From the human T2T-CHM13v2.0 reference genome, Homo sapiens, in assembly GCF_009914755.1 (NCBI RefSeq), contig NC_060939.1: DNA of 64,000 nucleotides; one strand, given 5' to 3'. Positions 3,580-58,409 of the stretch are shown here, in pieces. A program made the position numbers and the translations under genes. Under the pieces are notes generated by a model that was given only the letters and a program-made list of their open reading frames with translations, did no database searches and had not been told where the DNA came from. How positions within the stretch are numbered: the first letter of the stretch is position 1; each line of letters starts with the position of its first letter.

Positions 3580-3910
3580 CCTACAATGTGGATGAATCTT
3601 GAAAATATTGTGCTACGTGTTATGTCAGTCATAGCAGCTCACCTATTGTGCAATTCCGTTTATAGGAAATGTCCACAATATGGAAATCTATGCATATGGG
3701 ATTGATCGCACTAGGTAGTTGCTACCTAGGGCTGAGGGTCAGGGAGAGGGTTTGAGACAGAATGAGGAGTGACTAATGTCTACAGGGTCTTTCTCTGGTC
3801 GGGGGTGATAAGACGTTTTACAATGGATTGCGAATTAAAATTGAATGTGCACAACCACAGGTATACTAAAAGCCACTCAATTCATGACCTTTAATGGGGG
3901 AATCTTACGT
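3580..3910 (+). mobile_element. Old L1M (L1MB/L1MD-like) 3'-region fragment, one per unit
   Basis: tggatgaatcttgaaaatattgtgcta...tattgtgcaattccgtttataggaaatgtcca...ggtagttgctacctagggctg...atactaaaagccactcaatt are typical mammalian L1M 3'UTR motifs. Confidence 0.65.
3890..3895 (-). terminator. Candidate poly(A) signal ATTAAA about 230 nt after the ORF stop
   Basis: + strand tttaat, followed on the minus strand by GT-rich sequence (gagtggcttttagtatacctgtggttgtg). Confidence 0.35.
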
Positions 3911-4121: not shown

Positions 4122-7100
4122 TCACCGGTAGTGTGGCCCGCAGGGAGGCCGACCTGCTGGAGCGTCGTGCCAGCATGGGCTGTGGCAACCACGTGGGCCA
4201 GCAGGAGGTTCCCGCTGCACAGCTGTGGGGTGAGGATAGACTGGGTGGTGATATCGGCCATTACAGGGGCCTCTTCTGCTGGCAAGAGTGTGACAGTAGC
4301 AAGTAGATGGACAGGCCTGCGTGTGAGGACGGAATGCAGGAGGGGTTCTTGTGCGCCTGGGTGTGGGGCCCTCACGGGAACCGTGGAGAAATGGCCAGGT
4401 AACTGCGTCATGTGGGCTAGTAGATTGGCCAGGGCTTCGAACTGAAGGACGATAACGGGGAGTAGCTGTCAGGCCCTGGGAGTGCCTGAGTGTAAGTGGA
4501 GATGGGTTTGGGGTCACTGAGGGATGCGTGGGAGCCATCCCTGTATAGGTACAGGTCATAGGGAGATAGTCTCGTGAGGCCTGTGAGTGTCTAGGGTTGT
4601 CCTGGGTGCCTGGGGCTGACTGTGGCAGAAATCTGGGGAAGGCTGGAGAGAAGCTGGGAGACCCAGGAGAGTCCCTGAAGGCAGGGGGTGAAGAGGTGAA
4701 AGAAATGGGGGAGGGTTGCAGTAAGGTCCGTGAGTTTGTAGGTGATTCCTGGGTGCGGGAAGCTGACTCCAGATGAAATCTGGAGATGGTTGGAGAGTAG
4801 CTGAGAGAGACAGAAGAGTCCCTGAGGGCTGGGGGTGAGAACATGAGGGAGACGGGGGAGTAAGTCAGTGAAATTCGTGAGTTCGGTGGTGTATCGTGGG
4901 TGCCTGGAACTGACTCCAGCTGGAATCTAGAGAAGTTTTGAGAGTAGCTGAAGGAGACACAAGAGTCCCTGTGGGCTGAGGGCAAAGACCTGAGACAGAC
5001 CAGGGAGGACCTCAGTGAAGTCTGTGAGTCTGTAGGTGATTCCGGAGTGTGGGAGGCTGACTCCCGCTGAAATCTGGGCGTGGTGGGAGAGTAGCTGGGA
5101 CAGACAGGAGAGTCCCAGGGGGCTGGGGGTGAAGACGTGAGAGAGACTGGGGAGTAACTCAGTGAAATTGCTGAGTTGGTTGGTGATACCTGGGTGCCTG
5201 GAACTGACCCCCGCTGAAATCTGGGCATGGTTGGAGAGTAGCTGGGACACACAGGAGAGTCCCTGAGGGCTGGGGGTGAAGACATGAGCGAGACCGGGGA
5301 GTAACTGAGTGAAACTGGTGAGTTTGGTGGTGACTCCGGGGTGCCTGGAACTGACTCCAGCTGAAATGTGGGCGTGGTTGGAGAGTAGCTGGGACAGACA
5401 GGAGAGTCCCTGAGGACTGGTGAAGACATGAGAGAGACTGGAGAGTAATTGAGTGAAATTGGTGAGTTTGGTGGTGATTCCTGGGTGCCTGGAACTGACT
5501 CCCGCTGAAGTGTGGGCGTGGTTGGAGAGTAGCTGGGACACACAGGAGAGTCCCTGAGGGTTGGAGATAAAGACGTGCTAGAGACTGAGGAGTAACTGAG
5601 TGAAATTGGTGAGTTTGGTGGTGATTCCGGGGTGCCTGGAACGGACTCCAGCTGAAATGTGGGCGTGGTTGGAGAGTAGCTGGGACAGACGGGAGAGTCC
5701 CTGAGGGATGGTGAAGACATGAGAGAGACTGGGGAGTAACGCAGTGAAATTGGTGAGTTTGGTGGTGATTTCTGGGTGCCTGCAACGGACTCCCGCTGAA
5801 GTGTGGGCGTGCTTGGAGAGTAGCTGGGACAGACAGGCGAGTCCCTGAGGGTTGGAGATAAAGACGTGCTAGAGACTGAGGAGTAACTGAGTGAAATTGG
5901 TGAGTTTGGTGGTGATTCCGGGGTGCCTGGAACGGACTCCAGCTGAAATGTGGGCGTGGTTGGAGAGTAGCTGGGACAGACGGGAGAGTCCCTGAGGGAT
6001 GGTGAAGACATGAGAGAGACTGGGGAGTAACGCAGTGAAATTGGTGAGTTTGGTGGTGATTTCTGGGTGCCTGCAACGGACTCCCGCTGAAGTGTGGGCG
6101 TGCTTGGAGAGTAGCTGGGACAGACAGGCGAGTCCCTGAGGGTTGGAGATAAAGACGTGCTGGAGACTGGGGAGTAACTCAGTGAAAGTGGGGGGCTTGG
6201 TGGTGATCCCAGGGTTCCTGGAACTGACCCGCGCTGAAATGTGGGCGTGGTTGGAGAGTAGCTGGGACAGACTGGAGGGTCCGTAAGGGCTGGGGGTGAA
6301 GACGTGAGAGAGACTGGCGAGGATCTCACTGAGGTCTGTGAGTTTGTAGGTGTTTCTGGGGTGTGGGGTACAGACTCCCGCTGAAATCTGGGCGTAGTTG
6401 GAGAGTAGCTGGGACAGACAGGAGAGTCATGGGTGGCTGGGGGTGAGCTGCTGGATGATGGCAGTAAGAACATATGGTACATTATTGATGAATGAGGTGA
6501 CTGTGAAGAATCTCCAGAGGAGGACACGGGAGAACACAATGACATGAGTGACTGTCCTGCTTGGTTAGGAAAGGGAAACGTAAAGTTGTGGAATTCTGTT
6601 GATGATGGATGTGAGAGTGGTGAAGCCCTGCGGGATGATGTAGAGGACTTCCACATCCCTGGTGAGGAGCTGCCCCTTGGGTCTGAGTTTCTGGGAGGGG
6701 AGAGGGAGAAGCTGGGTGAGGCAGGCATGAATCTTGAGGAGTCAGGGCTGGGGGACCGCTCATATTCTCCCGAGACCTGTGAGTCTCTGGGGGACTCCTG
6801 GGTGCATGGGGCTGACTCCCGCAGGAACCTGGGGATGGCTGGAGAGTAACTGGGAGCCACAGGAGGGTCCCTGAGGCCTGGGGGTGAAGAGATGCAAGAC
6901 ACAGGGGTGGAGCAGCGTGAGGCTCGTGAGTTTGTAGGTGATTCCTGGGTGTGGGGGGCTGACTCCAGCTGAAATCTGGGGTTGTTTGGAGAGTAGCTGG
7001 GAGACACAGGAGACCCCCCGAGAGCTGGGGGTGAGCTGCTGGGTGATGGCAGTAAGAACATGTGGTATATTATTGATGAACGTGGGGACTCTGAGGAGTC

Positions 7101-7394
7101 CTCAGAGGAGGACACGGCAGAGCCCAATGGCTTCATTGATTGCCCATCACGGTGAGGACAGGGAAATGGGAGCTTGTGGGATTCTGGTGATGACAGAGGT
7201 GAGTGTGGTGAAGCCCTAGGGGATGGTGAATGGTAGTTCCGGATCCCTGGTGAGGAGCTTCCCCTTAAGCCTGAGTTTCTGAGAGGGGAGAGGGAGAAGC
7301 TGGGTGAGGCTCGCATGGACCTTGGGGTGTCCGTGATGGGGGACCGTTCATAAGAAGAGCCAGACAAGACCCTACTGTTCTTAGGTGCAGACAT
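4122..7394 (-). CDS. Putative Ser/Pro/Thr-rich disordered protein with Pol II CTD-like YSPTTP repeats, long form (1090 aa), copy 2
   Basis: Uninterrupted ATG-TGA ORF, A at Kozak -3, upstream TATA/Inr/GC box, 48/49-aa repeats. Translation is unproven. Confidence 0.65.
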   Translation of the reverse strand: MSAPKNSRVLSGSSYERSPITDTPRSMRASPSFSLSPLRNSGLRGSSSPGIRNYHSPSPRASPHSPLSSPESHKLPFPCPHRDGQSMKPLGSAVSSSEDSSESPRSSIIYHMFLLPSPSSSPPALGGSPVSPSYSPNNPRFQLESAPHTQESPTNSRASRCSTPVSCISSPPGLRDPPVAPSYSPAIPRFLRESAPCTQESPRDSQVSGEYERSPSPDSSRFMPASPSFSLSPPRNSDPRGSSSPGMWKSSTSSRRASPLSHPSSTEFHNFTFPFPNQAGQSLMSLCSPVSSSGDSSQSPHSSIMYHMFLLPSSSSSPPATHDSPVCPSYSPTTPRFQRESVPHTPETPTNSQTSVRSSPVSLTSSPPALTDPPVCPSYSPTTPTFQRGSVPGTLGSPPSPPLSLSYSPVSSTSLSPTLRDSPVCPSYSPSTPTLQRESVAGTQKSPPNSPISLRYSPVSLMSSPSLRDSPVCPSYSPTTPTFQLESVPGTPESPPNSPISLSYSSVSSTSLSPTLRDSPVCPSYSPSTPTLQRESVAGTQKSPPNSPISLRYSPVSLMSSPSLRDSPVCPSYSPTTPTFQLESVPGTPESPPNSPISLSYSSVSSTSLSPTLRDSPVCPSYSPTTPTLQRESVPGTQESPPNSPISLNYSPVSLMSSPVLRDSPVCPSYSPTTPTFQLESVPGTPESPPNSPVSLSYSPVSLMSSPPALRDSPVCPSYSPTMPRFQRGSVPGTQVSPTNSAISLSYSPVSLTSSPPAPWDSPVCPSYSPTTPRFQRESASHTPESPTDSQTSLRSSLVCLRSLPSAHRDSCVSFSYSQNFSRFQLESVPGTHDTPPNSRISLTYSPVSLMFSPPALRDSSVSLSYSPTISRFHLESASRTQESPTNSRTLLQPSPISFTSSPPAFRDSPGSPSFSPAFPRFLPQSAPGTQDNPRHSQASRDYLPMTCTYTGMAPTHPSVTPNPSPLTLRHSQGLTATPRYRPSVRSPGQSTSPHDAVTWPFLHGSREGPTPRRTRTPPAFRPHTQACPSTCYCHTLASRRGPCNGRYHHPVYPHPTAVQREPPAGPRGCHSPCWHDAPAGRPPCGPHYR
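4590..6450. repeat. 147/144-bp satellite block (ACRO1-like), present in every unit and extending in diverged form to about 7350
   Basis: The motif ggagagtagctgggacaga...gagtccctgaggg recurs every 144-147 bp. A 147-bp monomer is the known ACRO1 unit size. Confidence 0.85.
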
Positions 7395-7703
7395 GATTAG
7401 GAAACCTGCAGCTCCCAGGGGCCCCCACTAATGTTCTAACTCGCAGAAGGAAGGAGTGTGTGTGCGTGTGTGCGTGTGCGTGTGCGTGTGTGTGTTTGTG
7501 TGTGTGCGGTGTGAGGTATGGGCCCCTTAAAGAAATGGAAATCAACCAACCAATGGGACAGACAGACAGACAGACAGACAGAGATTCACTTGCCCAAGTG
7601 TTCTGTCCTGTCCTCTGAATCCGCTTTCAAGTCGCAAGACGCTGTGAGCTCCAAGTCCACGCAGAGTCCGCCAAACGCTCCGGCCGCTGATCCGCTCCGC
7701 GAA

Positions 7704-7774
7704 GATCTGAGTACAGGCCAGCCAGGGTGGGTTTAAATAGCCTCGGGCGCAGCCTAGCAGCGGAAAGGGCGGAG
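7704..7774 (-). promoter_or_regulatory. Core promoter of the copy 2 ORF (TATA 7739-7732, Inr A at 7708, GC box 7767-7772)
   Basis: Same motifs and spacing as at 1108-1178. Confidence 0.65.
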
Positions 7775-10717
7775 CCTCACTCCTCCTTTCCATCAGTCAC
7801 CCCCAACTTTCCCAGGCTACACCTCGTAGGAAACTGTTCTCCTGCTTTGATTTCATGCGCCACCTTTGGGACAATCTAAGAACTTACAGGTTTTCTTGGC
7901 CAGATTTATTAGGAATTGTATGCACTGAAACACTGAAAACCAACTAGTGGTTCTGTGCTTCCCACGTTGTGGTTTTGACACCAGCAGCATCCTTGCCACA
8001 ATCAAACCCCGGAGATCCGCAGATCTGTGTTGTAACAAGACCTCCCCCTGACCCTGAAGCATGGCAGTTGAAGAAGTCTTTCCGTGTAAGCGAAAAGACT
8101 TTGAAGAAAAGGTGGAGATATGCGTTGTATAAACATTCTTTTGCTCTGGAACCACGTAGAGACTTGGGAGCCAGTTGGGTGGAGCATTCGTTGGATGAGG
8201 GTGCTCGGGTTAGGAATATCAAGGTGTTTCTCCAGATAATCCAATCATCTAATTAAGATTCCAGTTATGCTCATCTGTTTTAAAATTCCGTTTGGGTAAA
8301 TTCTTTTAGTCAGACTGAGAATGGCAAAGCCTCAACCCCAATTTCCAGGGAGGGTGGAGAGCCTCAGGTGGAGTTGATCACCAATAGCCTATGGTTTAAC
8401 CCATCATGCCTATAGAATGAGGTCTCCATCAAAACCCAAAAGGACTGGGTTCAGAGAGCTTCTGGATAACACTTCCTGGAAGGTAGTGCACCCCTCCCCG
8501 CATGCCGGGCCCCACATTTATTTCTGAACTTTGTGCAATGTCCGCTAAAATACAACGGCAAATGTAAGTGTTTCCCTGCGTGCTGTGAGCTCTTCCAGCA
8601 AATGAATGCAACTAAATCTGGGAGTGGTGGCAACCTGATTTATAGCCAGTTGCTGAGAAGCACAGGTAAAACAACGTAGGGCTTCCCATTGTTGTTGGTG
8701 TGGGAGGCCTGTCTGGCGGGACTCGGCCCTTTGGAATCTAATGCTATGTCCCGGTAGATAGCGTCACCATTGAATTAGAAGACACACATATGTGGAGAAT
8801 AATCTTTCTGGTCATTTACTGCATGTCATATTTACAATATGTAATCAAATTCTTTATCCTGACCTTATGGCACCTGGGTTTAGGACCATGATTTGAACCA
8901 AACGTTGGTCTGTCACTTTCTGAGTTTGAAACTTTATTTTGCCTTTAGCGTTTTGCTATTGCTTTTTCGTTTTCTTTTGTTTCGTTTCGTTTCTAAGTTC
9001 TGGGGTATATGTGCAGGATGTGCAGATTTGTTACTAAGGTAAACGTGTGCCATGGTGGTTTGCTGCACCTGTCAACCCGTCACCTAGGTATTAAGCCCAG
9101 CATGCAGTAGCTGTTTTTCTTAACGCTCTGCCTCCCGAAAGGCCCCAGTGTGTGTTGTTCCCCTTCCTGTGTCCATGGGATCTCACTTTTCAGCTCCCAT
9201 TATAAGTGAGAAGGTGGCGTTTGGTTTTCTTTCCCTGGATTAGTTTGCTGACGATAATGACCACACATCACCACTGTTTTTGTTTTTTAGTATAAAGAGT
9301 AGTATTTTATTGAATAAGATTTGCTCACAGAAAAATAAGCTTAAATCTACAATGAATGCCAGACCCTACAGCAGAAAGCAATTTTCTCACTTTTCCACAC
9401 ACAATGGTTCCTACTAAGTGAAAAAAAAGCCATAAAATTTCATTCACAAATGTACTACTCTGTCTCAAAACATCTCACGTAATCATGCACTGTACTAAAG
9501 CCAACAGATCAGTTCTTCAGTCAGGTTAAAGAAGTATCCCTCTAATAACTGACTTTTATAATGCTATCAATATCCACTCCCAATCAGTCTGCCATTGTTA
9601 GTGGTGTACAGCATTACTGAATACAACGGAATTGATGACGCCCATATCCACAGACAAACCGTGACTTATGATGGTTTGATTTATGATTTTTCAACGTTAT
9701 GATGGGTTTATTGGAATATTAGATTCGTTTCTGAGTTACACTGGGTTTATGAGTATGCGACCCTACACTCCAGAAACAGCTGTACAAGGAAAAACAGGTG
9801 TACCTAATAAAAATATGCTTAGTGACTTGGGATAAACCAATAGAAGTTCACAAGTGATGGAGAGCCGTGAAAGAGAGATAGCGGTAAATAGTTACAATAA
9901 CACAATTTTCCTGCACCTGTCGAGGATTTCCCCCAAAAAACGCAGAATGTGGGATGCACCTAAGGCATATGAAAGAGAGAGGGCAGAAGGAGTAAGAGAG
10001 AAATAGGAGGAAGGAAGGAAGGAAGCAAGGAAGAAAGGAAGGTAGGAAAGAAGGAAGGTAGGACGGAAGGAAGGAAGGAAGGAAGGAAGGAAGGAAGGAA
10101 AGAAGGATGAAAGGAAGGAGAAAACACCGGTGTTACTAAAACCCCCCAAAAAAATGGTTTCCCCCTGTGGGTAAGCCTACAATGTGGATGAATCTTGAAA
10201 ATATTGTGCTACGTGTTATGTCAGTCATAGCAGCTCACCTATTGTGCAATTCCGTTTATAGGAAATGTCCACAATATGGAAATCTATGCATATGGGATTG
10301 ATCGCACTAGGTAGTTGCTACCTAGGGCTGAGGGTCAGGGAGAGGGTTTGAGACAGAATGAGGAGTGACTAATGTCTACAGGGTCTTTCTCTGGTCGGGG
10401 GTGATAAGACGTTTTACAATGGATTGCGAATTAAAATTGAATGTGCACAACCACAGGTATACTAAAAGCCACTCAATTCATGACCTTTAATGGGGGAATC
10501 TTACGTGGCGTAGTCTCATGGAGACCACGGCAGACATAGTGAGAGAGAAAAAGGTGAGTAAATATCTGAAACGGAGGCAGAAACAGAGAGAATGTAAAGC
10601 CCTGTGAATGGAAGGGAGAGCGAAAAGGGAAAATGGTCCTATTTACAAATGACAGATGTGAAACTGGGGTTCACATCAACAGTGTCACTGCCAGGAAGGA
10701 GGGTCATGCTAGCCATG

Positions 10718-13700
10718 TCACCGGTAGTGTGGCCCGCAGGGAGGCCGACCTGCTGGAGCGTCGTGCCAGCATGGGCTGTGGCAACCACGTGGGCCAGCAG
10801 GAGGTTCCCGCTGCACAGCTGTGGGGTGAGGATAGACTGGGTGGTGATATCGGCCATTACAGGGGCCTCTTCTGCTGGCAAGAGTGTGACAGTAGCAAGT
10901 AGATGGACAGGCCTGCGTGTGAGGACGGAATGCAGGAGGGGTTCTTGTGCGCCTGGGTGTGGGGCCCTCACGGGAACCATGGAGAAATGGCCAGGTAACT
11001 GCGTCATGTGGGCTAGTAGATTGGCCAGGGCTTCGAACTGAAGGACGATAACGGGGAGTAGCTGTCAGGCCCTGGGAGTGTCTGAGTGTAAGTGGAGATG
11101 GGTTTGGGGTCACTGAGGGATGCGTGGGAGCCATCCCTGTATAGGTACAGGTCATAGGGAGATAGTCTCGTGAGGCCTGTGAGTGTCTAGGGTTGTCCTG
11201 GGTGCCTGGGGCTGACTGTGGCAGAAATCTGGGGAAGGCTGGAGAGAAGCTGGGAGACCCAGGAGAGTCCCTGAAGGCAGGGGGTGAAGAGGTGAAAGAA
11301 ATGGGGGAGGGTTGCAGTAAGGTCCGTGAGTTTGTAGGTGATTCCTGGGTGCGGGAAGCTGACTCCAGGTGAAATCTGGAGATGGTTGGAGAGTAGCTGA
11401 GAGAGACAGAAGAGTCCCTGAGGGCTGGGGGTGAGAACATGAGGGAGACGGGGGAGTAAGTCAGTGAAATTCGTGAGTTCGGTGGTGTATCGTGGGTGCC
11501 TGGAACTGACTCCAGCTGGAATCTAGAGAAGTTTTGAGAGTAGCTGAAGGAGACACAAGAGTCCCTGTGGGCTGAGGGCAAAGACCTGAGACAGACCAGG
11601 GAGGACCTCAGTGAAGTCTGTGAGTCTGTAGGTGATTCCGGAGTGTGGGAGGCTGACTCCCGCTGAAATCTGGGCGTGGTGGGAGAGTAGCTGGGACAGA
11701 CAGGAGAGTCCCAGGGGGCTGGGGGTGAAGACGTGAGAGAGACTGGGGAGTAACTCAGTGAAATTGCTGAGTTGGTTGGTGATACCTGGGTGCCTGGAAC
11801 TGACCCCCGCTGAAATCTGGGCATGGTTGGAGAGTAGCTGGGACACACAGGAGAGTCCCTGAGGGCTGGGGGTGAAGACATGAGCGAGACCGGGGAGTAA
11901 CTGAGTGAAACTGGTGAGTTTGGTGGTGACTCCGGGGTGCCTGGAACTGACTCCAGCTGAAATGTGGGCGTGGTTGGAGAGTAGCTGGGACAGACAGGAG
12001 AGTCCCTGAGGACTGGTGAAGACATGAGAGAGACTGGAGAGTAATTGAGTGAAATTGGTGAGTTTGGTGGTGATTCCTGGGTGCCTGGAACTGACTCCCG
12101 CTGAAGTGTGGGCGTGGTTGGAGAGTAGCTGGGACACACAGGAGAGTCCCTGAGGGTTGGAGATAAAGACGTGCTAGAGACTGAGGAGTAACTGAGTGAA
12201 ATTGGTGAGTTTGGTGGTGATTCCGGGGTGCCTGGAACGGACTCCAGCTGAAATGTGGGCGTGGTTGGAGAGTAGCTGGGACAGACGGGAGAGTCCCTGA
12301 GGGATGGTGAAGACATGAGAGAGACTGGGGAGTAACGCAGTGAAATTGGTGAGTTTGGTGGTGATTTCTGGGTGCCTGCAACGGACTGCCGCTGAAGTGT
12401 GGGCGTGCTTGGAGAGTAGCTGGGACAGACAGGCGAGTCCCTGAGGGTTGGAGATAAAGACGTGCTAGAGACTGAGGAGTAACTGAGTGAAATTGGTGAG
12501 TTTGGTGGTGATTCCGGGGTGCCTGGAACGGACTCCAGCTGAAATGTGGGCGTGGTTGGAGAGTAGCTGGGACAGACGGGAGAGTCCCTGAGGGATGGTG
12601 AAGACATGAGAGAGACTGGGGAGTAACGCAGTGAAATTGGTGAGTTTGGTGGTGATTTCTGGGTGCCTGCAACGGACTCCCGCTGAAGTGTGGGCGTGCT
12701 TGGAGAGTAGCTGGGACAGACAGGCGAGTCCCTGAGGGTTGGAGATAAAGACGTGCTGGAGACTGGGGAGTAACTCAGTGAAAGTGGGGGGCTTGGTGGT
12801 GATCCCAGGGTTCCTGGAACTGACCCGCGCTGAAATGTGGGCGTGGTTGGAGAGTAGCTGGGACAGACTGGAGGGTCCGTAAGGGCTGGGGGTGAAGACG
12901 TGAGAGAGACTGGCGAGGATCTCACTGAGGTCTGTGAGTTTGTAGGTGTTTCTGGGGTGTGGGGTACAGACTCCCGCTGAAATCTGGGCGTAGTTGGAGA
13001 GTAGCTGGGACAGACAGGAGAGTCATGGGTGGCTGGGGGTGAGCTGCTGGATGATGGCAGTAAGAACATATGGTACATTATTGATGAATGAGGTGACTGT
13101 GAAGAATCTCCAGAGGAGGACACGGGAGAACACAATGACATGAGTGACTGTCCTGCTTGGTTAGGAAAGGGAAACGTAAAGTTGTGGAATTCTGTTGATG
13201 ATGGATGTGAGAGTGGTGAAGCCCTGCGGGATGATGTAGAGGACTTCCACATCCCTGGTGAGGAGCTGCCCCTTGGGTCTGAGTTTCTGGGAGGGGAGAG
13301 GGAGAAGCTGGGTGAGGCAGGCATGAATCTTGAGGAGTCAGGGCTGGGGGACCGCTCATATTCTCCCGAGACCTGTGAGTCTCTGGGGGACTCCTGGGTG
13401 CATGGGGCTGACTCCCGCAGGAACCTGGGGATGGCTGGAGAGTAACTGGGAGCCACAGGAGGGTCCCTGAGGCCTGGGGGTGAAGAGATGCAAGACACAG
13501 GGGTGGAGCAGCGTGAGGCTCGTGAGTTTGTAGGTGATTCCTGGGTGTGGGGGGCTGACTCCAGCTGAAATCTGGGGTTGTTTGGAGAGTAGCTGGGAGA
13601 CACAGGAGACCCCCCGAGAGCTGGGGGTGAGCTGCTGGGTGATGGCAGTAAGAACATGTGGTATATTATTGATGAACGTGGGGACTCTGAGGAGTCCTCA

Positions 13701-13990
13701 GAGGAGGACACGGCAGAGCCCAATGGCTTCATTGATTGCCCATCACGGTGAGGACAGGGAAATGGGAGCTTGTGGGATTCTGGTGATGACAGAGGTGAGT
13801 GTGGTGAAGCCCTAGGGGATGGTGAATGGTAGTTCCGGATCCCTGGTGAGGAGCTTCCCCTTAAGCCTGAGTTTCTGAGAGGGGAGAGGGAGAAGCTGGG
13901 TGAGGCTCGCATGGACCTTGGGGTGTCCGTGATGGGGGACCGTTCATAAGAAGAGCCAGACAAGACCCTACTGTTCTTAGGTGCAGACAT
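10718..13990 (-). CDS. CTD-like repeat protein, long form (1090 aa), copy 3
   Basis: Intact ORF nearly identical to copy 2 (QRESV>QRQSV change visible). Confidence 0.65.
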   Translation of the reverse strand: MSAPKNSRVLSGSSYERSPITDTPRSMRASPSFSLSPLRNSGLRGSSSPGIRNYHSPSPRASPHSPLSSPESHKLPFPCPHRDGQSMKPLGSAVSSSEDSSESPRSSIIYHMFLLPSPSSSPPALGGSPVSPSYSPNNPRFQLESAPHTQESPTNSRASRCSTPVSCISSPPGLRDPPVAPSYSPAIPRFLRESAPCTQESPRDSQVSGEYERSPSPDSSRFMPASPSFSLSPPRNSDPRGSSSPGMWKSSTSSRRASPLSHPSSTEFHNFTFPFPNQAGQSLMSLCSPVSSSGDSSQSPHSSIMYHMFLLPSSSSSPPATHDSPVCPSYSPTTPRFQRESVPHTPETPTNSQTSVRSSPVSLTSSPPALTDPPVCPSYSPTTPTFQRGSVPGTLGSPPSPPLSLSYSPVSSTSLSPTLRDSPVCPSYSPSTPTLQRESVAGTQKSPPNSPISLRYSPVSLMSSPSLRDSPVCPSYSPTTPTFQLESVPGTPESPPNSPISLSYSSVSSTSLSPTLRDSPVCPSYSPSTPTLQRQSVAGTQKSPPNSPISLRYSPVSLMSSPSLRDSPVCPSYSPTTPTFQLESVPGTPESPPNSPISLSYSSVSSTSLSPTLRDSPVCPSYSPTTPTLQRESVPGTQESPPNSPISLNYSPVSLMSSPVLRDSPVCPSYSPTTPTFQLESVPGTPESPPNSPVSLSYSPVSLMSSPPALRDSPVCPSYSPTMPRFQRGSVPGTQVSPTNSAISLSYSPVSLTSSPPAPWDSPVCPSYSPTTPRFQRESASHTPESPTDSQTSLRSSLVCLRSLPSAHRDSCVSFSYSQNFSRFQLESVPGTHDTPPNSRISLTYSPVSLMFSPPALRDSSVSLSYSPTISRFHLESASRTQESPTNSRTLLQPSPISFTSSPPAFRDSPGSPSFSPAFPRFLPQSAPGTQDNPRHSQASRDYLPMTCTYTGMAPTHPSVTPNPSPLTLRHSQGLTATPRYRPSVRSPGQSTSPHDAVTWPFLHGSREGPTPRRTRTPPAFRPHTQACPSTCYCHTLASRRGPCNGRYHHPVYPHPTAVQREPPAGPRGCHSPCWHDAPAGRPPCGPHYR

Positions 13991-17309: not shown

Positions 17310-20290
17310 TCACCGGTAGTGTGGCCCGCAGGGACGCCGACCTGCTGGAGCGTCGTGCCAGCATGGGCTGTGGCAACCACGTGGGCCAGCAGGAGGTTCC
17401 CGCTGCACAGCTGTGGGGTGAGGATAGACTGGGTGGTGATATCGGCCATTACAGGGGCCTCTTCTGCTGGCAAGAGTGTGACAGTAGCAAGTAGATGGAC
17501 AGGCCTGCGTGTGAGGACGGAATGCAGGAGGGGTTCTTGTGCGCCTGGGTGTGGGGCCCTCACGGGAACCGTGGAGAAATGGCCAGGTAACTGCGTCATG
17601 TGGGCTAGTAGATTGGCCAGGGCTTCGAACTGAAGGACGATAATGGGGAGTAGCTGTCAGGCCCTGGGAGTGCCTGAGTGTAAGTGGAGATGGGTTTGGG
17701 GTCACTGAGGGATGCGTGGGAGCCATCCCTGTATAGGTACAGGTCATAGGGAGATAGTCTCGTGAGGCCTGTGAGTGTCTAGGGTTGTCCTGGGTGCCTG
17801 GGGCTGACTGTGGCAGAAATCTGGGGAAGGCTGGAGAGAAGCTGGGAGACCCAGGAGAGTCCCTGAAGGCAGGGGGTGAAGAGGTGAAAGAAATGGGGGA
17901 GGGTTGCAGTAAGGTCCGTGAGTTTGTAGGTGATTCCTGGGTGCGGGAAGCTGACTCCAGGTGAAATCTGGAGATGGTTGGAGAGTAGCTGAGAGAGACA
18001 GAAGAGTCCCTGAGGGCTGGGGGTGAGAACATGAGGGAGACGGGGGAGTAAGTCAGTGAAATTCGTGAGTTCGGTGGTGTATCGTGGGTGCCTGGAACTG
18101 ACTCCAGCTGGAATCTAGAGAAGTTTTGAGAGTAGCTGAAGGAGACACAAGAGTCCCTGTGGGCTGAGGGCAAAGACCTGAGACAGACCAGGGAGGACCT
18201 CAGTGAAGTCTGTGAGTCTGTAGGTGATTCCGGAGTGTGGGAGGCTGACTCCCGCTGAAATCTGGGCGTGGTGGGAGAGTAGCTGGGACAGACAGGAGAG
18301 TCCCAGGGGGCTGGGGGTGAAGACGTGAGAGAGACTGGGGAGTAACTCAGTGAAATTGCTGAGTTGGTTGGTGATACCTGGGTGCCTGGAACTGACCCCC
18401 GCTGAAATATGGGCATGGTTGGAGAGTAGCTGGGACACACAGGAGAGTCCCTGAGGGCTGGGGGTGAAGACATGAGCGAGACCGGGGAGTAACTGAGTGA
18501 AACTGGTGAGTTTGGTGGTGACTCCGGGGTGCCTGGAACTGACTCCAGCTGAAATGTGGGCGTGGTTGGAGAGTAGCTGGGACAGACAGGAGAGTCCCTG
18601 AGGACTGGTGAAGACATGAGAGAGACTGGAGAGTAATTGAGTGAAATTGGTGAGTTTGGTGGTGATTCCTGGGTGCCTGGAACTGACTCCCGCTGAAGTG
18701 TGGGCGTGGTTGGAGAGTAGCTGGGACACACAGGAGAGTCCCTGAGGGTTGGAGATAAAGACGTGCTAGAGACTGAGGAGTAACTGAGTGAAATTGGTGA
18801 GTTTGGTGGTGATTCCGGGGTGCCTGGAACGGACTCCAGCTGAAATGTGGGCGTGGTTGGAGAGTAGCTGGGACAGACGGGAGAGTCCCTGAGGGATGGT
18901 GAAGACATGAGAGAGACTGGGGAGTAACGCAGTGAAATTGGTGAGTTTGGTGGTGATTTCTGGGTGCCTGCAACGGACTCCCGCTGAAGTGTGGGCGTGC
19001 TTGGCGAGTAGCTGGGACAGACAGACGAGTCCCTGAGGGTTGGAGATAAAGACGTGCTGGAGACTGGGGAGTAACTCAGTGAAAGTGGTGGGCTTGGTGG
19101 TGATCCCAGGGTTCCTGGAACTGACCCGCGCTGAAATGTGGGCGTGGTTGGAGAGTAGCTGGGACAGACTGGAGGGTCCGTAAGGGCTGGGGGTGAAGAC
19201 GTGAGAGAGACTGGCGGGGATCTCACTGAGGTCTGTGAGTTTGTAGGTGTTTCTGGGGTGTGGGGTACAGACTCCCGCTGAAATCTGGGCGTAGTTGGAG
19301 AGTAGCTGGGACAGACAGGAGAGTCATGGGTGGCTGGGGGTGAGCTGCTGGATGATGGCAGTAAGAACATATGGTACATTATTGATGAATGAGGTGACTG
19401 TGAAGAATCTCCAGAGGAGGACACGGGAGAACACAATGACATGAGTGACTGTCCTGCTTGGTTAGGAAAGGGAAACGTAAAGTTGTGGAATTCTGTTGAT
19501 GATGGATGTGAGAGTGGTGAAGCCCTGCGGGATGATGTAGAGGACTTCCACATCCCTGGTGAGGAGCTGCCCCTTGGGTCTGAGTTTCTGGGAGGGGAGA
19601 GGGAGAAGCTGGGTGAGGCAGGCATGAATCTTGAGGAGTCAGGGCTGGGGGACCGCTCATATTCTCCCGAGACCTGTGAGTCTCTGGGGGACTCCTGGGT
19701 GCATGGGGCTGGCTCCCGCAGGAACCTGGGGATGGCTGGAGAGTAACTGGGAGCCACAGGAGGGTCCCTGAGGCCTGGGGGTGAAGAGATGCAAGACACA
19801 GGGGTGGAGCAGCGTGAGGCTCGTGAGTTTGTAGGTGATTCCTGGGTGTGGGGGGCTGACTCCAGCTGAAATCTGGGGTTGTTTGGAGAGTAGCTGGGAG
19901 ACACAGGAGACCCCCCGAGAGCTGGGGGTGAGCTGCTGGGTGATGGCAGTAAGAACATCTGGTATATTATTGATGAACGTGGGGACTCTGAGGAGTCCTC
20001 AGAGGAGGACACGGCAGAGCCCAATGGCTTCATTGATTGCCCATCACGGTGAGGACAGGGAAATGGGAGCTTGTGGGATTCTGGTGATGACAGAGGTGAG
20101 TGTGGTGAAGCCCTAGGGGATGGTGAATGGTAGTTCCGGATCCCTGGTGAGGAGCTTCCCCTTAAGCCTGAGTTTCTGAGAGGGGAGAGGGAGAAGCTGG
20201 GTGAGGCTCGCATGGACCTTGGGTGTCCGTGCTGGGGGACCGTTCATAAGAAGAGCCAGACAAGACCCTACTGTTCTTAGGTGCAGACAT
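17310..20290 (-). pseudogene. CTD-like repeat gene copy 4, short form, with a 1-bp deletion near codon 24; 967-aa ORF remains from the ATG at 20213
   Basis: ccttGGGtgtcc at about 20217-20228 versus ccttGGGGtgtcc in copies 1-3 puts the ATG at 20290 out of frame. Confidence 0.6.
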
Positions 20291-23607: not shown

Positions 23608-26589
23608 TCACCGGTAGTGTGGCCCGCAGGGACGCCGACCTGCTGGAGCGTCGTGCCAGCATGGGCTGTGGCAACCACGTGGGCCAGCAGGAGGTTCCCG
23701 CTGCACAGCTGTGGGGTGAGGATAGACTGGGTGGTGATATCGGCCATTACAGGGGCCTCTTCTGCTGGCAAGAGTGTGACAGTAGCAAGTAGATGGACAG
23801 GCCTGCGTGTGAGGACGGAATGCAGGAGGGGTTCTTGTGCGCCTGGGTGTGGGGCCCTCACGGGAACCGTGGAGAAATGGCCAGGTAACTGCGTCATGTG
23901 GGCTAGTAGATTGGCCAGGGCTTCGAACTGAAGGACGATAATGGGGAGTAGCTGTCAGGCCCTGGGAGTGCCTGAGTGTAAGTGGAGATGGGTTTGGGGT
24001 CACTGAGGGATGCGTGGGAGCCATCCCTGTATAGGTACAGGTCATAGGGAGATAGTCTCGTGAGGCCTGTGAGTGTCTAGGGTTGTCCTGGGTGCCTGGG
24101 GCTGACTGTGGCAGAAATCTGGGGAAGGCTGGAGAGAAGCTGGGAGACCCAGGAGAGTCCCTGAAGGCAGGGGGTGAAGAGGTGAAAGAAATGGGGGAGG
24201 GTTGCAGTAAGGTCCGTGAGTTTGTAGGTGATTCCTGGGTGCGGGAAGCTGACTCCAGGTGAAATCTGGAGATGGTTGGAGAGTAGCTGAGAGAGACAGA
24301 AGAGTCCCTGAGGGCTGGGGGTGAGAACATGAGGGAGACGGGGGAGTAAGTCAGTGAAATTCGTGAGTTCGGTGGTGTATCGTGGGTGCCTGGAACTGAC
24401 TCCAGCTGGAATCTAGAGAAGTTTTGAGAGTAGCTGAAGGAGACACAAGAGTCCCTGTGGGCTGAGGGCAAAGACCTGAGAGAGACCAGGGAGGACCTCA
24501 GTGAAGTCTGTGAGTCTGTAGGTGATTCCGGAGTGTGGGAGGCTGACTCCCGCTGAAATCTGGGCGTGGTGGGAGAGTAGCTGGGACAGACAGGAGAGTC
24601 CCAGGGGGCTGGGGGTGAAGACATGAGAGAGACTGGGGAGTAACTCAGTGAAATTGCTGAGTTGGTTGGTGATACCTGGGTGCCTGGAACTGACCCCCGC
24701 TGAAATCTGGGCATGGTTGGAGAGTAGCTGGGACACACAGGAGAGTTCCTGAGGGCTGGGGGTGAAGACATGAGCGAGACCGGGGAGTAACTGAGTGAAA
24801 CTGGTGAGTTTGGTGGTGACTCCGGGGTGCCTGGAACTGACTCCAGCTGAAATGTGGGCGTGGTTGGAGAGTAGCTGGGACAGACAGGAGAGTCCCTGAG
24901 GACTGGTGAAGACATGAGAGAGAGTGGAGAGTAATTGAGTGAAATTGGTGAGTTTGGTGGTGATTCCTGGGTGCCTGGAACTGACTCCCGCTGAAGTGTG
25001 GGCATGGTTGGAGAGTAGCTGGGACACACAGGAGAGTCCCTGAGGGTTGGAGATAAAGACGTGCTAGAGACTGAGGAGTAACTGAGTGAAATTGGTGAGT
25101 TTGGTGGTGATTCCGGGGTGCCTGGCACGGACTCCAGGTGAAATGTGGGCGTGGTTGGAGAGTAGCTGGGACAGACGGGAGAGTCCCTGAGGGATGGTGA
25201 AGACATGAGAGAGACTGGGGAGTAACGCAGTGAAATTGGTGAGTTTGGTGGTGATTTCTGGGTGCCTGCAACGGACTCCCGCTGAAGTGTGGGCGTGCTT
25301 GGAGAGTAGCTGGGACAGACAGGCGAGTCCCTGAGGGTTGGAGATAAAGACGTGCTGGAGACTGGGGAGTAACTCAGTGAAAGTGGTGGGCTTGGTGGTG
25401 ATCCCAGGGTTCCTGGAACTGACCCGCGCTGAAATGTGGGCGTGGTTGGAGAGTAGCTGGGACAGACTGGAGGGTCCGTAAGGGCTGGGGGTGAAGACGT
25501 GAGAGAGACTGGCGAGGATCTCACTGAGGTCTGTGAGTTTGTAGGTGTTTCTGGGGTGTGGGGTACAGACTCCCGCTGAAATCTGGGCGTAGTTGGAGAG
25601 TAGCTGGGACAGACAGGAGAGTCATGGGTGGCTGGGGGTGAGCTGCTGGATGATGGCAGTAAGAACATATGGTACATTATTGATGAATGAGGTGACTGTG
25701 AAGAATCTCCAGAGGAGGACACGGGAGAACACAATGACATGAGTGACTGTCCTGCTTGGTTAGGAAAGGGAAACGTAAAGTTGTGGAATTCTGTTGATGA
25801 TGGATGTGAGAGTGGTGAAGCCCTGCGGGATGATGTAGAGGACTTCCACATCCCTGGTGAGGAGCTGCCCCTTGGGTCTGAGTTTCTGGGAGGGGAGAGG
25901 GAGAAGCTGGGTGAGGCAGGCATGAATCTTGAGGAGTCAGGGCTGGGGGACCGCTCATATTCTCCCGAGACCTGTGAGTCTCTGGGGGACTCCTGGGTGC
26001 ATGGGGCTGGCTCCCGCAGGAACCTGGGCATGGCTGGAGAGTAACTGGGAGCCACAGGAGGGTCCCTGAGGCCTGGGGGTGAAGAGATGCAAGACACAGG
26101 GGTGGAGCAGCGTGAGGCTCGTGAGTTTGTAGGTGATTCCTGGGTGTGGGGGGCTGACTCCAGCTGAAATCTGGGGTTGTTTGGAGAGTAGCTGGGAGAC
26201 ACAGGAGACCCCCCGAGAGCTGGGGGTGAGCTGCTGGGTGATGGCAGTAAGAACATGTGGTATATTATTGATGAACGTGGGGACTCTGAGGAGTCCTCAG
26301 AGGAGGACACGGCAGAGCCCAATGGCTTCATTGATTGCCCATCACGGTGAGGACAGGGAAATGGGAGCTTGTGGGATTCTGGTGATGACAGAGGTGAGTG
26401 TGGTGAAGCCCTAGGGGATGGTGAATGGTAGTTCCGGATCCCTGGTGAGGAGCTTCCCCTTAAGCCTGAGTTTCTGAGAGGGGAGAGGGAGAAGCTGGGT
26501 GAGGCTCGCATGGACATTGGGGTGTCCGTGCTGCGGGACCGTTCATAAGAAGAGCCAGACAAGACCCTACTGTTCTTAGGTGCAGACAT
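23608..26589 (-). CDS. CTD-like repeat protein, short form (993 aa), copy 5
   Basis: Intact ORF lacking one 291-bp (97-aa) dimer relative to the long form. Confidence 0.65.
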   Translation of the reverse strand: MSAPKNSRVLSGSSYERSRSTDTPMSMRASPSFSLSPLRNSGLRGSSSPGIRNYHSPSPRASPHSPLSSPESHKLPFPCPHRDGQSMKPLGSAVSSSEDSSESPRSSIIYHMFLLPSPSSSPPALGGSPVSPSYSPNNPRFQLESAPHTQESPTNSRASRCSTPVSCISSPPGLRDPPVAPSYSPAMPRFLREPAPCTQESPRDSQVSGEYERSPSPDSSRFMPASPSFSLSPPRNSDPRGSSSPGMWKSSTSSRRASPLSHPSSTEFHNFTFPFPNQAGQSLMSLCSPVSSSGDSSQSPHSSIMYHMFLLPSSSSSPPATHDSPVCPSYSPTTPRFQRESVPHTPETPTNSQTSVRSSPVSLTSSPPALTDPPVCPSYSPTTPTFQRGSVPGTLGSPPSPPLSLSYSPVSSTSLSPTLRDSPVCPSYSPSTPTLQRESVAGTQKSPPNSPISLRYSPVSLMSSPSLRDSPVCPSYSPTTPTFHLESVPGTPESPPNSPISLSYSSVSSTSLSPTLRDSPVCPSYSPTMPTLQRESVPGTQESPPNSPISLNYSPLSLMSSPVLRDSPVCPSYSPTTPTFQLESVPGTPESPPNSPVSLSYSPVSLMSSPPALRNSPVCPSYSPTMPRFQRGSVPGTQVSPTNSAISLSYSPVSLMSSPPAPWDSPVCPSYSPTTPRFQRESASHTPESPTDSQTSLRSSLVSLRSLPSAHRDSCVSFSYSQNFSRFQLESVPGTHDTPPNSRISLTYSPVSLMFSPPALRDSSVSLSYSPTISRFHLESASRTQESPTNSRTLLQPSPISFTSSPPAFRDSPGSPSFSPAFPRFLPQSAPGTQDNPRHSQASRDYLPMTCTYTGMAPTHPSVTPNPSPLTLRHSQGLTATPHYRPSVRSPGQSTSPHDAVTWPFLHGSREGPTPRRTRTPPAFRPHTQACPSTCYCHTLASRRGPCNGRYHHPVYPHPTAVQREPPAGPRGCHSPCWHDAPAGRRPCGPHYR

Positions 26590-58100: not shown

Positions 58101-58409
58101 GGACTCTGAGGAGTCCTCAGAGGAGGACACGGCAGAGCCCAATGGCTTCATTGATTGCCCATCACGGTGAGGACAGGGAAATGGGAGCTTGTGGGATTCT
58201 GGTGATGACAGAGGTGAGTGTGGTGAAGCCCTAGGGGATGGTGAATGGTAGTTCCGGATCCCTGGTGAGGAGCTTCCCCTTAAGCCTGAGTTTCTGAGAG
58301 GGGAGAGGGAGAAGCTGGGTGAGGCTCGCATGGACCTTGGGGTGTCCGTGCTGGGGGACCGTTCATAAGAAGAGCCAGACAAGACCCTACTGTTCTTAGG
58401 TGCAGACAT
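55136..58409 (-). pseudogene. CTD-like repeat gene copy 10, long form, +1 frameshift giving a truncated 211-aa product
   Basis: G7 at 57967-57973 versus G6 in other copies; the ORF is split into 57774..58409 and 55136..57916, and the latter has a non-ATG start. Confidence 0.65.

What the first reader, a model, noticed from the sequence alone, without database searches (positions are those of the whole stretch)
4122..7774. A 'satellite' that reads as a tandemly amplified gene family encoding a ~1000-aa RNA Pol II CTD-mimic protein
Seen: each unit has promoter, ATG, a 3.0-3.3 kb open frame, a stop and poly(A) candidates on one strand. The frame stays open through the homogeneous satellite, the diverged 5' region (about 300 codons) and the non-repetitive 3' tail (about 140 codons); six complete copies are intact. 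The product is S/P/T-rich, nearly Lys-free, with many YSPTTP/YSPVS motifs. Known: the POLR2A CTD is (YSPTSPS)n, phosphorylated by CDK7/9/12 and bound by CID/WW/SRI-domain proteins. I recall that in-silico similarity of ACRO1 to the CTD has been noted before in work on Pol II-binding RNA aptamers. Inference: the unit may be a real multicopy gene, possibly germline- or embryo-restricted like other macrosatellite genes (DUX4, TAF11L, USP17L), whose product acts as a free CTD decoy, kinase sink or condensate scaffold.
Basis: partly seen in the sequence, partly recalled or inferred. Interest (0 to 1): 0.92.

Follow-up and report, generated by a model that had tools for sequence, protein, structure and literature searches.

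The report
Conserved open frame in ACRO satellite
Each 6-kb unit of the human acrocentric ACRO satellite carries a roughly 1000-codon reading frame that has stayed open across primates while its amino acids drift freely, so it may be a hidden embryo-stage gene family, but nobody has shown that it makes protein.

Summary
All ORFs of 300 aa or more lie on the minus strand. 7 of 10 units hold an intact 993- or 1090-codon ATG frame; 3 carry frameshifting indels.

Already in print: the resemblance to the Pol II CTD, DUX4-induced and 4-cell-stage ACRO1 RNA, and a passing "putative protein coding gene" remark.

New here:
- The frame is X domain, 49-aa repeats, then a Cys/His-rich tail.
- It starts at the first ATG behind a TATA-like box, a CpG peak and a DUX4-type motif.
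- 227 genomic copies match the start-codon 30-mer.
- Colinear open frames occur in marmoset, at a single-copy chr2 site and in a 47%-identical unnamed record.

Evidence is split.
- For coding: 0 internal stops against 12 and 18 in the sister frames. Old frameshifting indels are about 28-fold rarer than indels in the flank (p 2e-4 to 7e-6).
- Against: pN/pS is about 1, and replacements are no more conservative than random. Frame-scrambled copies still give 400-550-aa ORFs. Published work shows the sense RNA blocks its own elongation.

My odds: frame-maintained, probably translated disordered protein 0.45; by-product of a stop-poor repeat 0.38; decaying relic 0.12. CTD mimicry is untested.

The parts
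4122..7394 (-). ORF of unit 1: 1090 codons plus stop (the finding's frame)
7035..7394 (-). X1: N-terminal 120 codons. Not alignable in register to core ACRO1 monomers at DNA level (66-67% different). Holds the conserved island IIYHMF.
6783..7034 (-). Short ACRO1 block, about 2 diverged 49-codon monomers, with SPVSPSYSP..PRF
   Evidence: Boots 2020 mentions a 256-bp array
6447..6782 (-). X2: diverged paralogue of X1 (26-35% nt difference), same frame
4575..6446 (-). Main ACRO1 array. Monomers of 147/144 bp (49/48 codons), each made of seven 21-bp sub-repeats.
4125..4574 (-). Non-repeat Cys/His-rich tail, 150 codons, with the conserved island CPSTCYCHTLA.RR..NGR
7395..7710 (-). Putative leader of about 316 nt with (GTCT)n and (CA)n and no ATG
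   Evidence: No uATG in 25 of 25 copies with the TATA box. Shuffles give P(0 ATG)=0.04 (measured on unit 4).
7732..7739 (-). TATTTAAA box about 345 nt upstream of the ATG. It lies inside the unit's CpG peak, measured in unit 4 at 26807-27006: 15 CpG per 200 bp, o/e 0.84.
8237..8247 (+). [quoted passage not shown] One per unit, about 850 nt upstream of the ATG.
   Evidence: 10 of 10 units, against 0.19 expected per window; 26 of 27 copies examined. PMC4730607 passages.
3890..3895 (-). First poly(A)-signal-like hexamer (ATTAAA), 227 nt after the stop
10718..13990 (-). Unit 2 ORF, 1090 codons, intact
17310..20290 (-). Unit 3 frame, broken by a 1-nt deletion at codon 23 (C4 to C3). 967 aa remain from a later ATG.
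23608..26589 (-). Unit 4 ORF, 993 codons, intact. Units 5-8 are alike: 29907-32888, 36219-39200, 42522-45503, 48825-51806.
55136..58409 (-). Unit 9 frame, broken by a 1-nt insertion at codon 146 (C6 to C7)
61732..64000 (-). Unit 10 frame (partial, cut by the window end), broken by a 4-nt tandem duplication at codon 947

Best explanation
The ACRO composite unit (ACRO1 satellite plus flanks) is a tandemly amplified, intronless transcription unit built around an old, primate-restricted orphan reading frame. The frame consists of an X domain, one to about nineteen 49-residue CTD-like repeats, and a Cys/His-rich tail.

Shown:
- The frame starts at the first ATG behind a TATA-like box, a CpG peak and a DUX4-type site.
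- It has been kept free of stops and frameshifts on the lineages that seeded arrays and dispersed copies.
- Its amino-acid sequence drifts at about the neutral rate.

Inferred:
- The unit is transcribed on the C-rich strand when DUX4 is on, in cleavage-stage embryos and in FSHD or other de-repressed cells.
- It is translated into a long, disordered protein rich in proline-directed serine and threonine.
- What matters about that protein is its bulk properties (length, 114 [ST]P sites, SPSYSP-type motifs), not its exact sequence.

Acting as bait for CTD kinases or CTD readers is a plausible but untested sub-hypothesis.
For: 1. Same-strand control. The ORF frame has 0 internal stops; the other two frames have 12 and 18. 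The mutational target for new stops is, if anything, largest in the ORF frame: 3.6% against 2.75% and 2.9% of substitutions. In the non-array parts, shuffles give P(no stop) of 0.06, 0.05 and 0.019.

2. Indel filter.
- Among recent variants inside the window, the ORF (3 frameshifting indels per 54 substitutions) and the spacer (3 per 59) look alike.
- Among old differences to chr2, chr4, chr19 and chr14-type copies, the ORF has 1 frameshifting indel per 704 pairwise substitutions. The upstream flank has 12 per 306.
- Fisher p = 6.6e-6, or 2.3e-4 with shared events collapsed.
- Within the ORF, recent against old gives p = 0.0015-0.003.
- The other small old ORF indels are +3, +3, -3 and +30.

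3. Stop gains. There are 6-8 in the ORF frame against about 15 expected after calibration on the other frames (p 0.007-0.03).

4. Colinear open frames elsewhere.
- Callithrix model P0005: 832 aa, same Met, same tail, one 1-aa gap in the first 343 residues.
- Human chr2 single copy: 358 aa, 5.2% diverged, same start and stop.
- Unnamed P0010: 98% identical, 361 aa.
- Unnamed P0044: 47% identical, same Met to the same C-terminus, with only one repeat.
- Neutral simulation from the chr2 frame gives P(no stop) = 0.0025 at marmoset-like divergence and 0 of 400 at P0044-like divergence.

5. Leader. No ATG in 25 of 25 copies examined that have the TATA box. P = 0.04 by shuffles.

6. Promoter signs and expression. 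The TATA box, CpG peak and DUX4 motif are kept in the chr1, chr2 and chr19 copies. Published work reports DUX4 activation of ACRO1 RNA, a 4-cell peak and germline hypomethylation (passages).
Against: 1. No amino-acid constraint.
- pN/pS is 1.17 for chr15-type against chr14-type (52 nonsynonymous, 16 synonymous), with 1.05 and 1.12 in the control frames.
- It is 0.96 for chr2 (controls 0.93, 0.80).
- 60 synonymous events were observed against 56 expected, of 210.
- Human-marmoset replacements have mean BLOSUM62 -0.92 against -0.73 expected for random single-nucleotide changes.
- Only the oldest internal duplication hints at constraint: pN/pS 0.66, differences by codon position 28/40/50.

2. Copy decay. 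3 of 10 units in the window are frameshifted. 6 of 40 scored full-length copies carry a stop. 4 of the 5 complete dispersed copies fetched (chr19a, chr19b, chr4a, chr4b) carry stops; the chr2 copy is intact and the chr1 copy is truncated.

3. Stop-poor strand. Frame-scrambled relatives still give ORFs of 426-546 aa (P0007, P0046, P0052, P0075). Databases list only open frames, so the cross-species evidence is ascertained.

4. Self-silencing RNA. Boots et al. 2020 (sections read) found no stable ACRO1 transcript in HeLa. 1.1-1.4 kb of sense ACRO1 almost abolished reporter RNA in cis. The natural frame holds 1.55-1.85 kb of array.

5. Annotation. There is no RefSeq gene model in this window (hub table), no Pfam family, and no relative outside this family among 1.8 billion representatives.

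6. Possible assembly error. Two of the three recent frameshifts are 1-nt changes in C runs. If both are dropped, the recent-against-old contrast loses significance (p 0.17).
Confidence: 0.45

Rival explanations
1. By-product. ACRO is a non-coding satellite whose function, if any, lies in its DNA or RNA: Pol II-binding aptamers that silence their own transcription, or nucleolar and heterochromatin organisation. The long frame follows from a C-rich strand built of 21-bp sub-repeats within 147-bp monomers (both multiples of 3). That strand is poor in stops in every frame and was recently homogenised. The look-alikes in other species are the lucky survivors that databases record.
For: - The 21-bp sub-period exists at DNA level: identity 0.42 at lag 21 against 0.28 background. 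There is no general 3-nt periodicity (0.275 against 0.28).
- The other two frames have open runs of 339 and 216 codons.
- Scrambled-frame ORFs of 426-546 aa exist.
- pN/pS is about 1 in every recent comparison, and replacements are not conservative.
- 3 of 10 window units are broken.
- The RNA-level activity is the only experimentally shown one (PMC7714431).
- There is no human gene model here (hub table).
Against: - It does not explain 0 stops against 12 and 18 in the sister frames when the stop targets are equal or larger.
- It does not explain the open X1, X2 and tail, which are not satellite.
- It does not explain the roughly 28-fold deficit of old frameshifting indels relative to the flank, given that recent indels hit ORF and spacer alike.
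- It does not explain the same Met and the same C-terminus in a 47%-identical relative that has a single repeat.
- It does not explain the ATG-free leader.
Confidence: 0.38
2. Relic. An older single-copy, short-form gene (X domain, one repeat, tail) was once translated and kept in frame. After its repeat expanded and the unit became a macrosatellite, constraint was lost. The human copies are a young, slowly decaying pseudogene family.
For: - Short forms with 1 repeat (P0044) and 2 repeats (chr2) exist beside the forms with about 19 repeats.
- pN/pS is 0.66 in the oldest internal duplication but about 1 in all recent comparisons.
- Nonsense and frameshift variants are present in arrays and in dispersed copies.
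Against: - Most array units are still intact: 7 of 10 in the window, and 34 of 40 scored genome-wide.
- The array-type sequences differ by up to 2.3-2.7% without a shared stop: 0 stop gains among 69 shared variants.
- The chr2 short form is only 5.2% from the array units. It reads as an in-frame internal deletion of 1905 nt, so it is probably derived, not ancestral.
Confidence: 0.12

Closest known systems
ACRO1 satellite / ACRO composite ('ACRE', ACRO_Comp)
   Same: It is this element.
- 147-bp monomers sit in a 6.3-6.6 kb higher-order unit containing L1 and LTR fragments, on acrocentric short arms plus chr1, 2, 3, 4 and 19.
- Sources, passages read: Boots 2020; Hoyt et al. preprint 10.1101/2021.07.12.451456; preprint 10.64898/2025.12.22.696095.
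- Boots 2020 already reported 23 of 49 residues identical to the CTD on in-silico translation.
   Different: The papers I could search describe the translated monomer only, or speak of a 'putative protein coding gene' in passing (PMC12746033). I found no description of the complete frame, its non-satellite X and tail parts, its start behind a promoter-like region, its cross-primate colinearity, or tests of selection. Searches. Supplements were not seen.
RNA polymerase II largest-subunit C-terminal domain (RPB1/POLR2A CTD)
   Same: - It has heptad-phased Ser-Pro with Tyr. Each 49-residue monomer is seven heptads.
- The SPSYSP(T) core matches the S5-P6-S7-Y1-S2-P3-T4 stretch of the consensus.
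- RPB1 chains are the only PDB sequence matches (E 7e-7, 30.7 bits with bias 223).
- A single monomer scores 83 against a yeast-type CTD, versus 48 +/- 9 for its shuffles (0 of 1000 reach it).
   Different: There is no exact YSPTSPS in 1090 residues, no Pfam PF05001 match and no polymerase body. The heptads follow a 21-bp DNA sub-repeat. Common descent from POLR2A was not tested.
Macrosatellite-embedded, DUX4-network gene arrays (D4Z4/DUX4, TAF11L, RS447/USP17L). Comparison from general knowledge.
   Same: Kb-scale tandem units each carry a complete intronless frame with promoter-like sequence. They are primate-restricted and copy-number variable. RNA is induced by DUX4 and at cleavage stage (papers).
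   Different: Those genes encode folded domains under purifying selection, and their proteins have been demonstrated. Here there is no domain, pN/pS is about 1, and no protein or strand evidence exists.
Mucin-type PTS tandem-repeat exons. Analogy from general knowledge.
   Same: Ser/Thr/Pro-rich repeat frames in which the reading frame and the composition are kept while the repeat sequence and number drift.
   Different: There is no signal peptide or hydrophobic segment: the most hydrophobic 19-mer scores 0.65. There are no flanking folded domains.

Membership tests
RNA polymerase II CTD (RPB1 C-terminal heptad repeats) | Tandem heptads matching the consensus Y-S-P-T-S-P-S | tested here: not met
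   0 exact YSPTSPS, 9 YSPT and 20 YSP in 1090 aa. SP dipeptides do keep a heptad phase: 18 of 39 fall in one residue class mod 7 in residues 1-442. Boots 2020 reports 23 of 49 identical.
RNA polymerase II CTD (RPB1 C-terminal heptad repeats) | Match to Pfam PF05001 (RNA_pol_Rpb1_R) | tested here: not met
   hmmscan of P0001 against Pfam-A at E up to 10 gave only a chance hit to Adeno_shaft. The whole-genome PF05001 search rang nowhere, the controls included, so it is uninformative.
RNA polymerase II CTD (RPB1 C-terminal heptad repeats) | Sits at the C-terminus of the RPB1 catalytic subunit | tested here: not met
   No other RPB1 domain in the frame. The frame is flanked by orphan X and tail sequences.
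RNA polymerase II CTD (RPB1 C-terminal heptad repeats) | Phosphorylated by CDK7/9/12 and bound by CID, WW or SRI readers | not testable with these tools
   Needs kinase and binding assays.
Macrosatellite-embedded gene array (D4Z4/DUX4 type) | Kb-scale unit in tandem, each with a complete intronless ORF | tested here: met
   Ten units of 6.3-6.6 kb, 7 with an intact frame. 227 genomic matches to the start-codon 30-mer, against 0 for the control pattern.
Macrosatellite-embedded gene array (D4Z4/DUX4 type) | Own promoter in each unit, and a capped, polyadenylated sense transcript | tested here: inconclusive
   A TATA-like box, a CpG peak, a DUX4-type motif and an ATG-free leader are present and conserved. 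ACRO1 RNA is reported, but its strand, start and end were not available to me.
Macrosatellite-embedded gene array (D4Z4/DUX4 type) | Protein product under purifying selection | tested here: inconclusive
   Amino-acid level not met: pN/pS 1.17, 0.96 and about 1. Reading-frame level met: frameshift deficit p 2e-4 to 7e-6 and stop deficit p 0.007-0.03. The protein itself is not testable here.
ACRO1 satellite / ACRO composite | 147-bp monomer arrays inside a unit of about 6 kb, on acrocentric short arms | tested here: met
   TRF gives period 147 with 10.6-12.6 copies per unit, and unit spacing of 6298-6596 nt. Copies are on C13, C14, C15, C21 and C22, plus C1-C4 and C19.
Pol II-binding RNA aptamer (RAP) element | RNA of this strand binds Pol II and stops elongation in cis | not testable with these tools
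   Shown by SELEX and reporters in Boots 2020. That the aptamer strand is the ORF strand is my inference, from their translating the enriched sense strand.

The most novel reading that the evidence does not exclude
About 200 copies of a DUX4-switched gene on the acrocentric short arms encode a free, 1000-residue CTD-like polypeptide. It is made in a burst at human genome activation, and wrongly in FSHD muscle and some tumours. There it competes with Pol II for CTD kinases, phosphatases and readers, or joins Pol II condensates, so tuning transcription genome-wide. The same sense RNA binds Pol II, so RNA and protein from one satellite would target the same enzyme.
Probability: 0.1. Interest if true: 0.9.

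Novelty: new member of a known kind. Interest (0 to 1): 0.62.

Why it matters
If the frame is translated, the human acrocentric short arms would hold a large, copy-number-variable protein-coding family that reference annotations miss. These arms are usually treated as rDNA plus junk.

The family would be switched on by DUX4 at genome activation and in FSHD. Its product is built from CTD-like heptads, so it bears on how Pol II is regulated in the first embryonic divisions.

It would also be a clear case of selection keeping a frame open without constraining its sequence.

If the frame is not translated, it is a useful warning. A stop-poor repeat whose period is a multiple of 3 can mimic a gene well enough to be auto-named 'RPB1-like' in several primate annotations, and even in a Plasmodium record.

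Tried and rejected
- Whole-genome search with Pfam PF05001, meant to locate the POLR2A CTD exons for a DNA-level test of common origin. Nothing rang, the controls included. The origin test was not done.
- Structure prediction of the chr2 short form with alignment A2. The tool accepted no jobs. 'Disordered' therefore rests on composition only.
- Rfam scan of one unit: 0 families.
- The sigma-70 and terminator scan is not relevant to a human locus and was ignored.
I used classes of private and shared variants instead.
- Paper search for translation evidence: it returned 49,497 papers because of loose terms and added nothing. The ACRO1-specific searches found no Ribo-seq or peptide report.
- An intrinsic 3-nt bias of indels as the explanation for frame-keeping: rejected. 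The 3 recent ORF indels are 1, 1 and 4 nt. However, two of the old 3-nt indels lie 144 nt apart and may be one monomer-type exchange.
- The chr2 copy as the ancestral locus: rejected as unlikely. It is 5.2% diverged and reads as an in-frame 1905-nt internal deletion.

Full report
**What is there.** The window is ten 6.3-6.6 kb units of the ACRO composite satellite (spacing 6298-6596 nt). Each has a 147-bp ACRO1 array of 10.6-12.6 copies.
- All 11 ORFs of at least 300 aa lie on the minus strand.
- Seven units carry a complete ATG-to-stop frame of 1090 codons (two units) or 993 codons (five units).
- Three are broken by small indels: -1 nt in a C4 run (unit 3), +1 nt in a C6 run (unit 9), and a 4-nt tandem duplication (unit 10).
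Intact copies number seven, not six.

**Anatomy (unit 1, minus strand).** In order:
- a DUX4-type motif, TAATCCAATCA (8237-8247);
- a TATTTAAA box (7732-7739) inside the unit's CpG peak (measured in unit 4: 15 CpG per 200 bp, o/e 0.84);
- a leader of about 316 nt with (GTCT)n and (CA)n and no ATG;
- the ATG at 7394;
- X1, 120 codons;
- two diverged ACRO1 monomers;
- X2, a paralogue of X1;
- the main array of 49/48-codon monomers;
- a 150-codon Cys/His-rich tail;
- the stop at 4122-4124;
- ATTAAA 227 nt further on.

X1 is not alignable in register to core monomers at DNA level (66-67% different). About 40% of the frame is therefore not satellite. The product is 49.7% Ser+Thr+Pro, has 6 Lys and 114 [ST]P sites, and has no hydrophobic segment.

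**Is the open frame more than chance?** Partly expected. The strand is 40% C, and the other two frames have only 12 and 18 stops, with open runs of 339 and 216 codons. The monomer is seven 21-bp sub-repeats (identity 0.42 at lag 21 against 0.28 background), so every period is a multiple of 3. Degenerate relatives whose frames are scrambled still give ORFs of 426-546 aa (P0007, P0046, P0052, P0075).

But the ORF frame has no stop at all, although its target for stop-creating substitutions is the largest of the three (3.6% against 2.75% and 2.9%). In the non-array parts the other frames hold 3+6 stops (X1), 1+3 (X2) and 3+4 (tail). Shuffles give P(no stop) of 0.06, 0.05 and 0.019. The ATG-free leader has P = 0.04 and is ATG-free in 25 of 25 copies that have the TATA box.

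**Copies in the genome.** The 30-mer around the ATG occurs 227 times with up to 3 mismatches (control 0), on C1, C2, C3, C4, C13, C14, C15, C19, C21 and C22. Of 40 full-length protein matches scored, 34 have no stop and 6 have one. Only 46 of 2562 candidates were scored, best first, so this sample leans towards intact copies.

Dispersed copies fetched:
- chr2: a 358-codon short form with the same start and stop, 5.2% diverged, intact;
- chr19a: 2 stops and a +1 frameshift;
- chr19b: 3 stops;
- chr4: two copies with 1 stop each;
- chr1: truncated after 782 nt.

**Selection tests, amino-acid level.**
- pN/pS between the chr15-type and chr14-type arrays (68 differences in 2979 nt) is 1.17 in the ORF frame, and 1.05 and 1.12 in the two control frames.
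- For the chr2 copy it is 0.96 (controls 0.93, 0.80), with differences by codon position of 16/22/18.
- Among 210 variant events in 30 copies, 60 are synonymous against 56 expected.
- Human-marmoset replacements in the N-terminus and tail (129 of 460 positions) average BLOSUM62 -0.92, against -0.73 for random single-nucleotide changes.
- Only the oldest internal duplication (block A against block B, 118 differences in 546 nt) leans coding-like: 28/40/50 by codon position, pN/pS 0.66.
- Conclusion: no measurable constraint on the residues.

**Selection tests, frame level.**
- Stop gains among 550 variant events in 28 distinct sequences: 6-8 in the ORF frame, 12 and 12 in the others. Calibrated on those, about 15 were expected (p 0.007-0.03).
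- Recent indels within the window: 3 frameshifting indels per 54 substitutions in the ORF, and 3 non-microsatellite indels per 59 in the spacer. The ORF is therefore not intrinsically protected.
- Old differences to the chr2, chr4, chr19 and chr14-type copies: 1 frameshifting indel per 704 pairwise substitutions in the ORF, against 12 per 306 in 845 nt of upstream flank. Fisher p = 6.6e-6, or 2.3e-4 with shared events collapsed.
- The other small old ORF indels are +3, +3, -3 and +30. Two of these, 144 nt apart, may be one monomer exchange.
- Recent against old within the ORF gives p = 0.0015-0.003. This falls to 0.17 if the two homopolymer indels are set aside as possible assembly errors.

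**Other species.** Protein libraries hold:
- a Callithrix jacchus model (P0005, 832 aa, auto-named RPB1), colinear from the same Met to the same tail. Identity is 130 of 196, 112 of 146 and 98 of 133 by region, with one 1-aa gap in the first 343 residues and one stretch of about 60 residues in another frame that returns to frame;
- truncated or frameshifted 'RPB1-like' models from Papio and Piliocolobus, and tail fragments from Plecturocebus;
- an unnamed 361-aa record 98% identical to the chr2 form (P0010);
- an unnamed 355-aa record (P0044), 47% identical, colinear from MSAP to the C-terminus with a single repeat. P0097 and P0056 are partial relatives of the same kind.

Conserved islands are IIYHMF, SPVSPSYSP..PRF, QGLTAT and CPSTCYCHTLA.RR..NGR.

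A neutral simulation from the chr2 frame gives a mean of 5.7 stops and P(no stop) = 0.0025 at marmoset-like divergence. At P0044-like divergence it gives 9.7 stops and 0 of 400 runs without a stop. Weakness: libraries list only open frames, so ascertainment over copies and species may cost two orders of magnitude, and I had no non-human DNA. No relative outside this family appeared among 1.8 billion representatives (61 hits).

**CTD likeness.**
- RPB1 chains are the only PDB sequence matches (best E 7e-7, 30.7 bits, bias 223).
- One monomer scores 83 against a yeast-type CTD, versus 48 +/- 9 for its shuffles (0 of 1000 reach it). The likeness is therefore more than composition.
- It is not a CTD: no exact heptad, no PF05001 match, no polymerase body.
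- The likeness was published by Boots et al. 2020 (23 of 49 identical; passages and sections 7 and 9 read).

**Context in print (passages read).**
- ACRO is a 6-kb composite of ACRO1, L1PA10, MER21B and L1MB8 (10.64898/2025.12.22.696095).
- DUX4 activates ACRO1 transcription (PMC8990217; FSHD nanopore preprint).
- ACRO1 RNA peaks at the 4-cell stage (PMC6545021).
- ACRO1 is hypomethylated in spermatogonial stem cells and sperm (PMC5832720).
- TAATCCAATCA is one of four DUX4 consensus flavours (PMC4730607).
- Against easy expression: no stable transcript in HeLa, and 1.1-1.4 kb of sense ACRO1 almost abolishes reporter RNA in cis (PMC7714431).
- None of these gives the strand of the embryonic or DUX4-induced RNA.

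**Synthesis.** Two results pull apart. Residues drift neutrally, yet stops and above all frameshifts have been filtered from the lineages that propagate. I read this as a frame kept open for a product whose bulk properties matter (0.45). The rivals are a by-product of a stop-poor repeat whose period is a multiple of 3 (0.38) and a decaying relic (0.12). The remaining 0.05 is left for readings not listed. The CTD-decoy idea is allowed by the data but rests on no test (about 0.1).

**Not done.** Structure prediction, the Atlas look-up, the earlier findings of this scan and ancestral-state counting were unavailable. The POLR2A origin test failed at the search step. Supplements of the cited papers were not seen.

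Noticed in passing
G000:C3:95757153-95858984 (loci L007-L010, L012, L013, L016, L017, L020): An array of at least 17 ACRO units near the chr3 centromere is 99% identical to the chr15 units: 11 differences in 2979 nt of ORF. This points to a very recent transfer between a non-acrocentric chromosome and the acrocentrics.
   Followed up: partly
L031 = G000:C2:161738801-161743800 (frame at locus 1033-2109): A single-copy short form of the frame in chr2 euchromatin: 358 codons, same start and stop, 2 repeats. At least 1 kb of the promoter side is kept, and homology ends 53 nt after the stop. An unnamed record (P0010) holds a 98%-identical 361-aa version.
   Followed up: partly
L032 and L033 = G000:C19:47231501-47236500 and 47280001-47285500: Two decayed copies in opposite orientation, about 52 kb apart on chr19. 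They are 3.95% apart from each other and share one nonsense change (codon 978).
   Followed up: partly
L024 = G000:C22:9795038-9801016: A copy with an intact frame (1.6% diverged) whose upstream sequence changes exactly at the ATG. It appears to be an inverted piece of the unit's own spacer, so it has neither the TATA box nor the DUX4 motif.
   Followed up: partly
window 1-64000: The window switches unit type. Units of 6.6 kb with 12.6 monomers (1090 codons) sit at both ends. Six 6.3-kb units with 10.6 monomers (993 codons) sit in the middle. The difference is 291 nt, two monomers, in frame.
   Followed up: yes
proteins P0038 and P0022: A record named 'RPB1, partial [Plasmodium ovale wallikeri]' is an ACRO-frame look-alike. 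P0022 joins ACRO-frame sequence to AT-rich, unrelated coding sequence. Both look like host contamination or chimeric contigs in public databases.
   Followed up: no
window 29190-29320 and equivalents (the masked stretches in the hub's list): A (TTCC)n microsatellite in each spacer varies by 8-20 nt between neighbouring units. (GTCT)n and (CA)n in the leader vary too. These give most of the length differences between units.
   Followed up: yes
window 28200-28460 (-) and equivalents: A fragment that I recognise from memory as an L1 3' end lies in the same orientation as the frame, between the previous stop and the promoter-like region.
   Followed up: no
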